Origin: Escherichia coli
GTDB taxonomy: Bacteria; Pseudomonadota; Gammaproteobacteria; Enterobacterales; Enterobacteriaceae
Reading direction: 5' to 3' (one strand)
NCBI RefSeq assembly: GCF_003334255.1
Contig: NZ_QOWU01000062.1
Length of the DNA stretch: 27,246 nt
Made by a program: the position numbers. Positions 12,001 to 15,000 of the stretch are shown here, piece after piece. Position 1 is the stretch's first letter; the number at the start of each line of letters is the position of its first letter.

Positions 12001-15000
12001 CTGACTCCAGAAGATCAGGGATCCACGGATACAGATATTTCAGTGCGTTCTCCATCCGGCTGATACTGGATGCGTCCACAGGCAATCCCTGCTCAGTCAA
12101 AAGAGATGACAGTTCACGCATCGACACACTTTTGCTTAATTGCTCTTCATAAATCATCCGTGCTTTATGGATTCCCTGAGCCTTTTCAATAAACGTCAGT
12201 TCGCCCCTGACTTCATTCTCAGCCAGATGGCCAATGACACACTGAAGCCGCCCCGGCCACGGTTTGAAAAGCACATGAATACGGTAGAAACGCTGCTCGC
12301 CGGTCTCCTCCCACAGTTCTCTCAGGATCTGATAACGAGTGTTACCACCATCGCTGAAGATGTAGATATCCGGCTCACTCTCCGGTATCCGGGTGACCTT
12401 TGGCACCGTATCCAGTCCGCGGGAGAAAATTGAACTTTTAATATCGTCGTACCGGGGATTGCGCGTGGTTCTCGGGTTATCAGGATTAGGGCGCAACTGA
12501 TCCAGCGTCAGAACCATGGGCGTTTCCCCCAGGGCAACCACGTTACCGGTCTTACTGGTCTGGCGCCCCGGTTGCATGATGGCGGCCCCCAGATCAAGGG
12601 AATGATTTCGCTTAATTGACATACGCATTGCCTCCGGAACGGTCAAAATTCCAGCCACGTTCAAACGGTGAAAACAGGGTGTAACGACCATCGAAGCTCA
12701 CCCGTATCGTACCGGTCGGTCCCTGTCGCTGTTTGCTCACAATGATTTCCGCCACGCCCTTATCCAGAGTGCCGGGGTTGTAAACCTCGTCACGGTAAAT
12801 AAACATAATGAGGTCAGCATCCTGCTCCAGCGCCCCGGAATCACGCAGGTCACCGTTGTTTGGTCGTTTATCTGCCCGCTGTTCCACCTGTCGGTTAAGC
12901 TGCGACAGTGCGAGCACAGGGCATCCAAGTTCTTTCCCCAGCGACTTGAGGGCTCGGGATATTTCCGCAATCTCCTGAGTGCGGTTTTCCTGGTCCGGTG
13001 AACGAATCAACTGGAGATAATCGACCATTATCAGGGAAGGTCTGCCATACAGACGCACATAACGACGGGCACTGGCGCGCAGTGATGACGGAGTCTGAGA
13101 TGACGTGTCATCAATGATCAGGCGGTTACCTTCACCGGCAAATGTCCCCTCCTGCATGAACTCACCCATTGTTGCCGTAAGTCTCGCCCACTCCTCATCG
13201 TCCATCATGCTGCTGCGAAGACGAGTCAGCTCCACCCGGGACAGCATCGACAGGGTACGCAGAATCAGCTGCTCCCTGGACATTTCTATGCTGAACAGGA
13301 ATACCGTTTCATCGGTCCGCTCACGCAGGGCATTAAGACACAGAGTGAGTCCAAGGGCCGTTTTCCCCATCGACGGACGTGCTGCCAGAAGGATAAGATC
13401 CCCGGGCTGCAGGCCACAGGTCATCTCATCCAGTTCATCAAACCCCGTTGGGGTGCCCGTCATCCCGCCCGCCCTCAGTCCTTCTTCCAGCTGACGCAGG
13501 GCCAGCTCCATTGCGGAGGAAAGGCTCACTTCACTGCGCTCATGCAGCATGCCTGTCTGGGAAAGAGAAAAAAGTCGCCGTTCCGCGGATTCAAGAACTG
13601 CGCGCGGAGTGGCATCCGGCGATGCAACATCAGCAACCAGAGAATTACCGGTTTCCTGAAGCTGCCGCAGCATACTCTTTTCCGCCACAATACGGACATA
13701 AGCCATGATATTGGCTGCTGAAGGTGTATTCTTACTGAGCTCAGCCAGGTAAGCGAAGCCGCCCAGTGCCTCAATATTGTGCGTTTTCTCAATATGCTCA
13801 CTCAGCGTGATGAGGTCGAACGGCTGACCGCTGACTGCCAGCTCTGACATAGAGCGGAATATCACCCGGTGCACAGCCAGAGAAAAATCCTCCCCCCTGA
13901 GCATCAGCACCACTTCATCCCAGCGATCATTATCAAGCATCAGGCCGCCAAGCACAGCCTGTTCAGCATCAACGGAGCGCGGAATATAGCGTTCAGCCAT
14001 GGTGTATCCTCCCTCTCTGACTGCCGGAAACCCGGCTATGTGAAAAAAGGAAAAAGGGTGCCGGACGAACAGTTGCAGGGCATAAAATGCCCATAACTGC
14101 CTGTACGTTTTCAGACCGGTGAGTTTGCCGACCCCGGTCTGAAGGTACGGACAGCATCTTTATATTCATAACACTTTGACTTAATAAGGAAAAAATATGA
14201 ATACAAGTTATCAACAACTGCCGTCCGGCATTGGTTCTGAAGTGAAATACACCCTGCAGTTCTGGCTGCTGAGTAACGGAAAGGTCATGACGGAAAAAGA
14301 CGGGCTCTGTAACCCCTTTCCCCTGAACTGTATTGAATCGGCTCATCCTTTTACTCCGTTTCAGCAGAATCAGTGGGTTGAACTGGACACTGTCGGGCCG
14401 AATGGACCGGTGAAAGCGACATTCCTTGTGCACAGCGTTCTGTATAAACTGAAACGTCAGGGTGGCTCCCTGAATGATGCCGGCCGGCCTGAATACGGCC
14501 GGTGCATTGCTCACTGGCACACTGACGTGTTTGTTGAGAAAAAAGCGCTGCCTGACTGGCTGAGAGCATTCCACACTGACGTTTCGCACTCGTAAAAACA
14601 CGTTCAGCCCGACGGGTCATATTTTCCAGCCACCCGTCGGGGAAAATGTCAGCACCATCACGGGGAAACAAAATCGCTTTCCATTCAGGGTATGAGCGCG
14701 GAATACCTCCGGAAGCATTCCGGCTCAGACAGCGACTCACAGTGCAGGCAGCACGGAATGCATATGTTGCGATGCTCTCATCATATGTTGCGATGTTCTC
14801 ATTATTGCCTTTCTGCCGTTCCACCCGCTCTTCAGCATCAAATGCCAGTGCAGCAAGGCTTGCCCAGCACATGCAGTTCACTGAATTCCCCGGAACGCTC
14901 TGCAGCTCCCGGCGCACCATGTTGACCTCAGCACTGAAAAAAGCGTTCTCATCGCCTTCAAGGGCAGCCAGATGCAGCGGAAGCCAGACCTGACTGAACC

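What the first reader, a model, noticed from the sequence alone, without database searches (positions are those of the whole stretch)
14761..14802. In-frame 21-bp perfect-to-near-perfect tandem duplication inside the 300-aa ORF
Seen: catatgttgcgatgctctcat at 14761-14781 is repeated as catatgttgcgatgttctcat at 14782-14802, adding seven codons (NIATYDE / SIATYA) without a frameshift. This looks like a recent slipped-strand or replication duplication and may mark a variable or decaying gene.
Basis: seen in the sequence. Interest (0 to 1): 0.3.

Follow-up and report, generated by a model that had tools for sequence, protein, structure and literature searches.

The report
In-frame 21-bp duplication, orphan island gene
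A real but ordinary seven-codon tandem duplication sits in a flexible loop of an uncharacterised gene of an E. coli/Salmonella SPI-7-type mobile island; most isolates carry two copies, a few have slipped back to one, and the gene is not decaying.

Summary
Window 14761-14802 is an exact head-to-tail 21-bp x2 repeat with one mismatch, far beyond chance. It adds seven codons (ENIATYD|ESIATYA, residues 152-165) to the 300-aa minus-strand ORF 14351..15253.

The ORF is an orphan "hypothetical protein" with no Pfam, NCBIfam, PHROG, PADLOC, PDB or fold match. It lies between parA and dnaB-PI in the replication/partition module of an SPI-7-type integrative island inserted at a tRNA site next to yghD.

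The duplication is not a strain-specific recent event. 55 of 56 complete E. coli genomes that carry the gene have two copies, as do Salmonella and E. marmotae proteins. Different lineages have accumulated their own, mostly synonymous, substitutions in the copies.

It is not ancient either. Relatives at 33-52% identity have a single unit or a much shorter linker.

Copy number does vary. Two different one-copy alleles exist (ENIATY and ESIATY), and both cannot be ancestral, so at least one exact 21-bp contraction has occurred.

The gene core is under purifying selection (dN/dS 0.17-0.54). The repeat maps to a low-confidence loop, and one-copy and two-copy alleles are predicted to have the same fold.

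Verdict: an ordinary slipped-strand in-frame indel polymorphism in an indel-tolerant linker. Low interest.

The parts
14782..14802 (-). Repeat copy 1 on the coding strand (ATGAGAACATCGCAACATATG). It encodes most of E152-N-I-A-T-Y-D158. The junction codon GAT (Asp158) is created by the duplication.
14761..14781 (-). Repeat copy 2 on the coding strand (ATGAGAGCATCGCAACATATG). It encodes E159-S-I-A-T-Y-A165 and leads into predicted helix 161-178.
14546..15253 (-). Conserved core (codons 1-236) of the orphan ORF. It is under purifying selection and is homologous to all family members.
14351..14545 (-). Variable, predicted-disordered C-terminal tail (codons 237-300 plus stop). dN/dS is 1 or higher. 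It is partly deleted in frame in 245-aa alleles and replaced in YZLc1-3. The acidic end TDxAExE is conserved in distant relatives.
15590..16468 (-). ParA family ATPase gene, the upstream neighbour and first gene at this end of the island.
12612..14000 (-). dnaB-PI (SPI-7-type island replicative DNA helicase), the downstream neighbour.
14009..14233 (-). Copy of a ~225-nt intergenic element upstream of dnaB-PI. It is 86% identical to the copy upstream of the ORF.
15293..15516 (-). Second copy of the ~225-nt intergenic element, upstream of the 300-aa ORF.
16568..16616 (+). 3' fragment of a tRNA gene (anticodon-arm to CCA end, with a 1-nt deletion). It marks the island/chromosome junction next to yghD.
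   Evidence: assignment to tRNA-Phe rests on my own knowledge of the E. coli tRNA-Phe sequence

Best explanation
The 42 bases are a seven-codon in-frame tandem duplication inside a real protein-coding gene. That gene is an uncharacterised accessory gene occupying the variable slot between parA and dnaB-PI in SPI-7-type integrative islands of Escherichia and Salmonella.

Proposed history:
1. A single 21-bp unit was duplicated once by replication slippage or unequal exchange. This happened after this group split from relatives that are now about 50% identical, and before the present E. coli / E. marmotae / Salmonella alleles diversified.
2. The event created the junction codon Asp158.
3. One later transition produced the Asn153/Ser160 difference between the copies.
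4. The two-copy allele became the common form.
5. The 21-bp direct repeat still serves as a substrate for occasional exact contraction back to one copy.

The insertion lies in a loop between two helices whose length differs across the family, so copy number is probably neutral or nearly so for the protein.

Shown here: the repeat, its reading frame, the distribution of one-copy and two-copy alleles, purifying selection on the core, and the variable linker length in the family.

Inferred: slippage as the molecular mechanism, near-neutrality, and the direction of each change.
For: Repeat and frame. Non-chance.

Real gene:
- Variable sites by codon position are 15/13/26, with 26 synonymous and 28 non-synonymous variant codons.
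- Nei-Gojobori dN/dS is 0.17-0.54 in six allele pairs.
- Frame-preserving homologues reach down to 33% identity.
- Synteny parA-ORF-dnaB-parB is conserved, including overlap with the parA stop codon in L007.

Allele survey:
- 55 of 56 complete E. coli carriers have lengths that fit two copies; one is exactly 21 bp shorter.
- Four distinct two-copy alleles carry lineage-specific, mostly synonymous substitutions in the copies. There are two distinct one-copy alleles, ENIATY and ESIATY.
- Database proteins spanning the site: 27 two-copy, 4 ENIATY, 1 ESIATY, no three-copy.
- In a tree built without the repeat, the one-copy alleles sit next to two-copy alleles. L004-6 are 0.6% from RM11911, and SCU-171 groups with S19-651.

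Linker length: distant relatives have one unit (EDLGTYA in P0014/15) or only about 10-13 residues between the WASLAALxF and AFRxA motifs, against 27 here.

Structure: copy 1 lies in coil with pLDDT below 50, and copy 2 starts helix 161-178. The one-copy allele gives the same secondary-structure elements and confidence.
Against: - Recombination is active in this gene. YZLc1-3 is 30% divergent before gene position ~320 and 2.9% after it. The gene tree is therefore not a reliable history, and one of the two one-copy alleles could be an ancestral relic rather than a contraction. Only 'at least one contraction' is secure.
- L004-6's single copy carries GCA where its nearest two-copy relatives carry GCG in copy 2, so its parent allele is not among those sampled.
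- Neutrality rests on two medium-confidence models (mean pLDDT 65-66, built from 10-sequence alignments) and on comparative linker length. It has not been tested functionally.
- The protein's function is unknown.
Confidence: 0.85

Rival explanations
1. The two 21-mers are a cis-acting DNA site embedded in the gene, such as iterons for an island replication protein or a parS-like centromere for the island ParB. The 21-bp spacing (two helical turns) would position two protein dimers.
For: The repeat lies in the partition/replication module between parA and dnaB/parB. Its period of 21 bp is typical of iterons. In the YZLc1-3 comparison, the segment holding it (14612-14911) is 96-99% identical while dnaB and parA are 79-97%.
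Against: - Only two copies exist, with no other copy in 27 kb at up to 3 mismatches.
- One-copy alleles occur in islands with the module otherwise intact.
- Substitutions inside the copies follow the codon pattern of the ORF and are mostly synonymous.
- Variation among 14 close alleles is no lower around the repeat than elsewhere in the gene, so the YZLc1-3 near-identity is a recombination patch.
- Relatives at 33-52% identity lack the repeat but keep the module.
- A separate, much more iteron-like 36-bp x5-6 array exists at 5675-5873.
Confidence: 0.03
2. Copy number is functionally meaningful. The loop length (one heptad or two) tunes an interaction of the protein with ParA, DnaB-PI or a host factor, and alleles are selected in different hosts or island variants.
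For: Both states persist in multiple independent isolates. The loop has grown stepwise across the family, from ~10-13 to 19, 20 and 27 residues. The one-copy ESIATY alleles sit in an island variant with a different gene set between parA and the ORF.
Against: There is no association test. One-copy alleles are a small minority (1 of 56 complete genomes). The predicted fold is the same for both. The loop is low-confidence and poorly conserved.
Confidence: 0.08
3. The repeat is an ancient, fixed internal repeat of the protein family (a structural heptad motif) rather than a lineage-specific duplication.
For: Nearly all close homologues carry both copies. Seven residues is about two helical turns.
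Against: Members at 50% identity have a single EDLGTYA unit. Members at 33-37% have only ~10-13 residues in this linker. The two copies are 95% identical at the DNA level, while the family has diverged to 33% protein identity.
Confidence: 0.02
4. Either the duplication or the one-copy alleles are assembly or sequencing artefacts.
For: Short tandem repeats can be collapsed or expanded by assemblers.
Against: A 42-bp repeat is far shorter than a sequencing read. The two-copy state is in 55 complete genomes from many laboratories. The one-copy ESIATY allele is in three independent assemblies. The one-copy ENIATY allele is in a complete genome and in several protein records with multiple accessions.
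Confidence: 0.01

Closest known systems
In-frame tandem duplication / coding minisatellite (VNTR-type) polymorphism generated by slipped-strand mispairing
   Same: Head-to-tail copies; unit length a multiple of three; alleles differing by exactly one unit with unchanged flanks; location in a loop that tolerates length change.
   Different: Only one or two copies were seen and no longer arrays, so it is far less mutable than classical VNTR loci. There is no evidence of any phenotypic role.
Iterons / parS-type direct repeats of plasmid and ICE replication-partition modules
   Same: About 21-bp period, direct orientation, and location inside a parA-dnaB-parB module.
   Different: Two copies only, inside a coding region, evolving like codons, dispensable (one-copy alleles and repeat-less relatives), with no further copies. 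The window's real iteron-like array is elsewhere (5675-5873).
Shi of ICEclc (parA-shi-parB growth-arrest system; PMC6812849)
   Same: A small-family 'hypothetical' gene placed directly after the ICE parA in an ICEclc/PAPI-1/SPI-7-related element.
   Different: Shi is an 85-aa HicA-like protein from a 258-bp ORF that overlaps parA and parB, and the paper states that SPI-7 lacks a shi homologue. This ORF is 300 aa, has no Pfam hit, and is followed by dnaB-PI rather than parB. There is positional resemblance only and no evidence of shared function.
SPI-7 / ICEHin1056-type replication-stabilisation module (PMC3739013)
   Same: The surrounding genes match the described conserved module: parA, dnaB, parB, DUF2786, DUF2857, STY4528 family, PFL_4669 family, topoisomerase III, STY4534 family and ssb.
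   Different: In ICEHin1056, parA is followed directly by dnaB. The ORF studied here is a lineage-restricted insertion into that junction, which holds 0-4 extra genes in E. coli islands.

Membership tests
In-frame tandem-duplication (VNTR-type) indel polymorphism | Head-to-tail direct copies of high identity, beyond chance | tested here: met
   21 bp x2 with 20 of 21 identical. Expectation 4.7e-7 per window, and 0 of 200 random sequences reach it.
In-frame tandem-duplication (VNTR-type) indel polymorphism | Unit length a multiple of 3 and reading frame preserved in a real coding gene | tested here: met
   21 nt is 7 codons. Core dN/dS is 0.17-0.54, with a third-position excess of 15/13/26.
In-frame tandem-duplication (VNTR-type) indel polymorphism | Alleles that differ by whole units with identical flanks | tested here: met
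   One-copy alleles are exactly 21 bp shorter: SCU-171 and L004-6, and P0012, P0044, P0049, P0054. No three-copy allele was seen.
In-frame tandem-duplication (VNTR-type) indel polymorphism | Recurrent change of copy number (more than one event) | tested here: inconclusive
   The two different one-copy alleles (ENIATY and ESIATY) cannot both be ancestral, and both sit beside two-copy alleles in the tree. However, recombination in the gene prevents a firm count beyond one duplication plus at least one contraction.
Iterons / parS-like binding repeats | Several (usually 3 or more) copies clustered or dispersed near the replication/partition genes | tested here: not met
   Only 2 copies, and none elsewhere in the window at up to 3 mismatches.
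Iterons / parS-like binding repeats | Sequence conservation independent of coding constraints and retained across related elements | tested here: not met
   Substitutions in the copies are mostly synonymous. There is no local dip in variability. The repeat is absent from relatives at 33-52% identity that keep the module. One-copy alleles occur in intact modules.
Iterons / parS-like binding repeats | Bound by the cognate Rep/ParB protein | not testable with these tools
   This needs EMSA or ChIP.
Phase-variable contingency locus (simple sequence repeat) | Short unit (1-8 nt) in many copies whose change shifts the frame or promoter spacing to switch expression | tested here: not met
   The unit is 21 nt, there are at most 2 copies, and every observed allele stays in frame.
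Shi (ICEclc) family | About 85-aa HicA-like protein encoded by an ORF overlapping parA and parB | tested here: not met
   The ORF is 300 aa with no HicA_toxin or any other Pfam hit. It is separated from parA by 336 bp in the window and followed by dnaB-PI. The paper states SPI-7 lacks shi.
SPI-7-type integrative island (context of the gene) | Backbone genes parA, dnaB-PI, parB, DUF2786, DUF2857, STY4528-family, PFL_4669-family, topoisomerase III, STY4534-family and ssb in conserved order | tested here: met
   RefSeq annotation of E. coli 2015C-3121 (the ORF itself is 100% identical to the query) lists exactly these genes around it. ORF sizes and order in the window correspond.
SPI-7-type integrative island (context of the gene) | Insertion at a tRNA gene with a partial tRNA repeat at the junction | tested here: met
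   A tRNA 3' fragment lies at 16568-16616 between parA and yghD. Related loci annotate a tRNA at this junction. There is no intact tRNA in the window. The integrase end is outside the window.

The most novel reading that the evidence does not exclude
The orphan 300-aa protein could be a previously unrecognised maintenance factor of SPI-7-type islands. For example, it might be an adaptor acting with the island ParA or loading the island DnaB helicase through its conserved acidic C-terminus. The heptad copy number in its loop would then tune that interaction, making the 21-bp repeat a slow, slippage-driven functional switch rather than neutral variation.
Probability: 0.05. Interest if true: 0.5.

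Novelty: new member of a known kind. Interest (0 to 1): 0.12.

Why it matters
It matters little in itself. This is a textbook in-frame slippage polymorphism in a tolerant loop.

It has two modest uses. First, the 1-copy versus 2-copy state, together with the tail-length variants, is a simple marker for typing lineages and recombination among SPI-7-type islands in E. coli and Salmonella. Second, it draws attention to a conserved but entirely uncharacterised gene family. That family has 16 representatives among 1.84 billion proteins and no known fold, and it sits in the parA-dnaB junction of a medically relevant family of mobile islands.

Tried and rejected
- Function by homology: Pfam, NCBIfam, PHROGs, PADLOC and a PDB sequence profile gave no significant hit.
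- Cis-element idea: rejected. Rfam found nothing in 13950-15650 even at E <= 1.
- YZLc1-3 as a deep outgroup showing that the duplication predates a 15% split: rejected. Its 3' gene half is a 2.9%-divergent recombination patch.
- The antisense ORFs over the repeat (14646..14993 and 14692..14925, + strand) and the + strand ORF 14197..14595 are treated as non-coding. The sense frame carries the third-position excess. The variable sites over 14354-14595 fall 12/5/9 by codon position in the + strand frame. RefSeq does not call these ORFs.
- My first search for a tRNA-Phe remnant failed because of a 1-nt deletion. The fragment was then read directly.
- One translation was out of register and was redone.
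- The 86-aa ORF after parA in sister islands was tested for a HicA/Shi-like domain. There was no Pfam hit, so nothing can be concluded.
- I ran no further search on a search for three-copy alleles.

Full report
**1. The observation**

Window 14761-14802 is a perfect head-to-tail pair of 21-mers, CATATGTTGCGATGCTCTCAT and CATATGTTGCGATGTTCTCAT, with one C/T mismatch. I read it directly. Tandem Repeats Finder reports it (period 21, 2.0 copies, 95% matches, no indels), and so does the repeat finder. The bases on either side do not extend the repeat.

The 21-mer occurs nowhere else in the 27-kb window even with 3 mismatches, and none of 100 shuffles gave two matches. My own calculation gives 4.7e-7 expected occurrences of a 21-nt unit repeated with at most one mismatch. 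In 200 first-order Markov random sequences the longest such unit was 16 nt. The repeat is real and not chance.

**2. The gene it lies in**

The repeat lies in the minus-strand ORF 14351..15253 (300 aa). In register it reads ERQKGNN-ENIATYD-ESIATYA-FRAACTV. Copy 1 on the coding strand is window 14782-14802 and carries Asn153. Copy 2 is 14761-14781 and carries Ser160. Codon GAT (Asp158) spans the junction and was created by the duplication.

Several results show this is a real gene:
- Among 14 close E. coli alleles, variable sites in the core fall 15/13/26 by codon position, with 26 synonymous and 28 non-synonymous variant codons.
- Nei-Gojobori dN/dS is 0.17-0.54 in six allele pairs.
- Frame-preserving homologues exist down to 33% identity.

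The C-terminal tail (residues 237-300) behaves differently:
- dN/dS is 1.05-6.6.
- It is predicted disordered (pLDDT 31-44).
- Some alleles carry an in-frame ~165-nt deletion, giving 245-aa forms.
- YZLc1-3 has a different end.
- The acidic terminus TDxAExE recurs in relatives at 35-50% identity.

**3. Context**

The ORF itself is 100% identical in E. coli 2015C-3121. RefSeq annotates the genes around it there as the backbone of an SPI-7-type island: ParA, this hypothetical protein, dnaB-PI ("SPI-7-type island replicative DNA helicase"), ParB, DUF2786, DUF2857, a ParE-like toxin, an STY4528-family replication protein, a PFL_4669-family ICE protein, topoisomerase III, an STY4534-family ICE replication protein and SSB.

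The order parA - ORF - dnaB - parB is kept in every related locus, including a 50%-identity relative in which the ORF overlaps the parA stop codon.

To the right of parA the window holds a tRNA 3' fragment (16568-16616) and then yghD/gspM and the rest of a type II secretion operon. parA therefore marks the end of the island at a tRNA attachment site.

The parA-dnaB junction is a variable slot. It is empty in ICEHin1056 (PMC3739013) and holds one to four small genes in E. coli islands.

**4. The protein family**

The family is tiny and orphan:
- 17 clusters among 5.8 billion proteins, and 16 representatives among 1.84 billion with a profile search.
- All are from Escherichia, Salmonella, Erwinia or unnamed metagenomic sources.
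- No Pfam, NCBIfam, PHROG, PADLOC or PDB sequence match.

It is not Shi of ICEclc. Shi is a 258-bp HicA-like ORF, and SPI-7 is stated to lack a homologue (PMC6812849).

**5. Copy number in other isolates**

56 of 5,426 complete E. coli genomes carry the gene. 55 have match lengths that fit two copies. One, SCU-171, is exactly 21 bp shorter.

Extracting the site from 15 loci gives four different two-copy alleles:

| Allele | Differences between its two copies |
|---|---|
| Window type | 1 |
| PapRG | 2 |
| RM11911 | 3 |
| YZLc1-3 | 3 |

The extra differences are ATC>ATT, GCA>GCG and ATC>ATA (all synonymous) and GAT>AAT.

There are also two different one-copy alleles. GAGAACATCGCAACATAT (ENIATY) is in SCU-171. 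GAGAGCATCGCAACATAT (ESIATY) is in three independent assemblies (L004-6).

Among database proteins that span the site, 27 are two-copy, including Salmonella Typhi, Dublin and Newport and E. marmotae. Four are one-copy ENIATY and one is one-copy ESIATY. None has three copies. The exact window protein is recorded on at least 1000 contigs.

**6. Age and direction of change**

Relatives at about 50% identity (P0014/15) have a single unit, EDLGTYA. Relatives at 33-37% identity (P0016-19) have only about 10-13 residues between the invariant WASLAALxF and AFRxA motifs, against 27 in the window. The duplication therefore arose within the Escherichia/Salmonella branch of the family and in a linker that has changed length repeatedly.

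It is older than the present allele diversity, where core dS reaches about 0.09.

A newborn duplication has identical copies. Whichever of Asn or Ser was the original residue, one of the two one-copy alleles must therefore descend from a two-copy allele by an exact 21-bp deletion.

In a neighbour-joining tree built without the repeat, both one-copy alleles sit beside two-copy alleles. L004-6 are 0.6% from RM11911, and SCU-171 groups with S19-651. That favours two independent contractions.

I keep this as probable rather than shown, because the gene recombines. YZLc1-3 is 30% divergent up to gene position ~320 and 2.9% divergent after it. Its two-copy state is therefore not independent deep evidence. 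In addition, L004-6 carry GCA where their closest two-copy relatives have GCG.

**7. Could the 21-mers be a DNA site rather than codons?**

I considered iterons or a parS-like site because of the module and the two-turn period. The evidence is against it:
- There are only two copies and no others in the window.
- Changes inside the copies follow the codon pattern.
- Variability among close alleles shows no dip around the repeat, at 2-9 sites per 60 nt throughout.
- One-copy alleles and repeat-less relatives keep an intact module.
- Rfam finds nothing here.

The window's convincing iteron-like array is elsewhere: 36 bp x5-6 at 5675-5873.

**8. Effect on the protein**

In the two-copy model, residues 136-160 are coil, with pLDDT below 50 at 147-157. 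Copy 1 (152-158) lies in that coil and copy 2 (159-165) runs into helix 161-178.

The one-copy SCU-171 allele, modelled the same way, gives the same list of secondary-structure elements and the same confidence (pLDDT 66.1, pTM 0.65). It simply has a shorter connection between the helix starting at 128 and the next helix.

Together with the variable linker length across the family, this makes a neutral or nearly neutral length polymorphism the most likely reading. It is an inference from medium-confidence models, not a functional test.

**9. Verdict**

This is a slippage-type in-frame duplication at a site that does vary in copy number. It is not recent in the sense of strain-specific, and it does not mark a decaying gene.

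It is an ordinary example of a known kind of variation, in an uncharacterised accessory gene of SPI-7-type islands. Interest is low. The only open question of some value is what this orphan gene does in the parA-dnaB junction.

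Noticed in passing
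window 2251-2402 (-), with repeats 2296-2449: A full-length STAXI RNA (Rfam RF01728, 134 bits against a gathering score of 40.5) lies between the STY4534-family gene and topoisomerase III. The 46-nt x2-3 direct repeats reported by TRF and the repeat finder are its internal repeated hairpin units.
   Followed up: partly
window 5675-5873: A 36-bp tandem array of 5-6 copies (85-90% identical; unit GCACTGCCAACACCGCTC + T-rich spacer) lies in the intergenic gap between the STY4528-family replication gene (5902..7188, -) and the PFL_4669-family gene (4848..5567, -). It looks iteron-like or origin-like and is unrelated in sequence to the 21-mer.
   Followed up: no
window 6429-6489: A second 21-bp tandem repeat (2.9 copies, 80% matches) lies inside the STY4528-family replication protein gene. 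It is possibly another in-frame heptad repeat.
   Followed up: no
window 14009-14233 and 15293-15516: A ~225-nt intergenic element is present twice (86% identical), once upstream of dnaB-PI and once upstream of the 300-aa ORF. It contains small hairpins (for example GGGCATTTTATGCCC versus CGGGATTTTATTCCCG). There is no Rfam match, and YZLc1-3 has only the copy upstream of the ORF.
   Followed up: partly
window 14351-14545 (tail of the ORF); L014/L015/L004-6; L003: The C-terminal 64 residues evolve with dN/dS of 1 or higher. They are shortened by an in-frame ~165-nt deletion in 245-aa and 238-aa alleles, and replaced in YZLc1-3, where the ORF instead overlaps the dnaB start. The acidic C-terminus TDxAExE is nevertheless conserved in relatives at 35-50% identity.
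   Followed up: partly
L003 (E. coli YZLc1-3) versus window 14550-15253: There is a sharp mosaic boundary inside the gene near gene position 320. The 5' third is 30% divergent and the 3' part 2.9% divergent, which makes it more similar than the flanking dnaB and parA (79-97%). This indicates recombination between island lineages within this gene.
   Followed up: yes
window 16568-16616, 16623-16651: A tRNA 3' fragment (anticodon arm to CCA end, with a 1-nt deletion; by my recollection it matches tRNA-Phe) is followed by a strong terminator-like hairpin. It lies between parA and yghD/gspM, at the island-chromosome junction. ARAGORN finds no intact tRNA in the window, and RefSeq annotates 'tRNA-Ser' or 'tRNA-OTHER' at this junction in related genomes.
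   Followed up: partly
L004 2626-2886; L010 2708-2968; L011 3513-3773; L012 2705-2965: Sister islands carry an 86-aa ORF that overlaps the parA stop codon. This is the size and position of ICEclc shi, although the literature says SPI-7 lacks shi. It has no Pfam hit, and the window itself lacks this ORF.
   Followed up: partly
window 14197-14595 (+): A 132-aa plus-strand ORF with a good Shine-Dalgarno (AAGGAAAAAATATG) starts inside the duplicated intergenic element and overlaps the tail of the 300-aa ORF antisense. The paralogous element copy has ATA instead of ATG. There is no family hit. The variable sites over 14354-14595 fall 12/5/9 by codon position in its frame, and RefSeq does not call it.
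   Followed up: partly
window 8559-8609 and 9164-9214: A 51-nt direct repeat (88% identical) lies at the starts of the two adjacent ead/Ea22-like genes. These are probably paralogous 5' ends from a tandem gene duplication.
   Followed up: no
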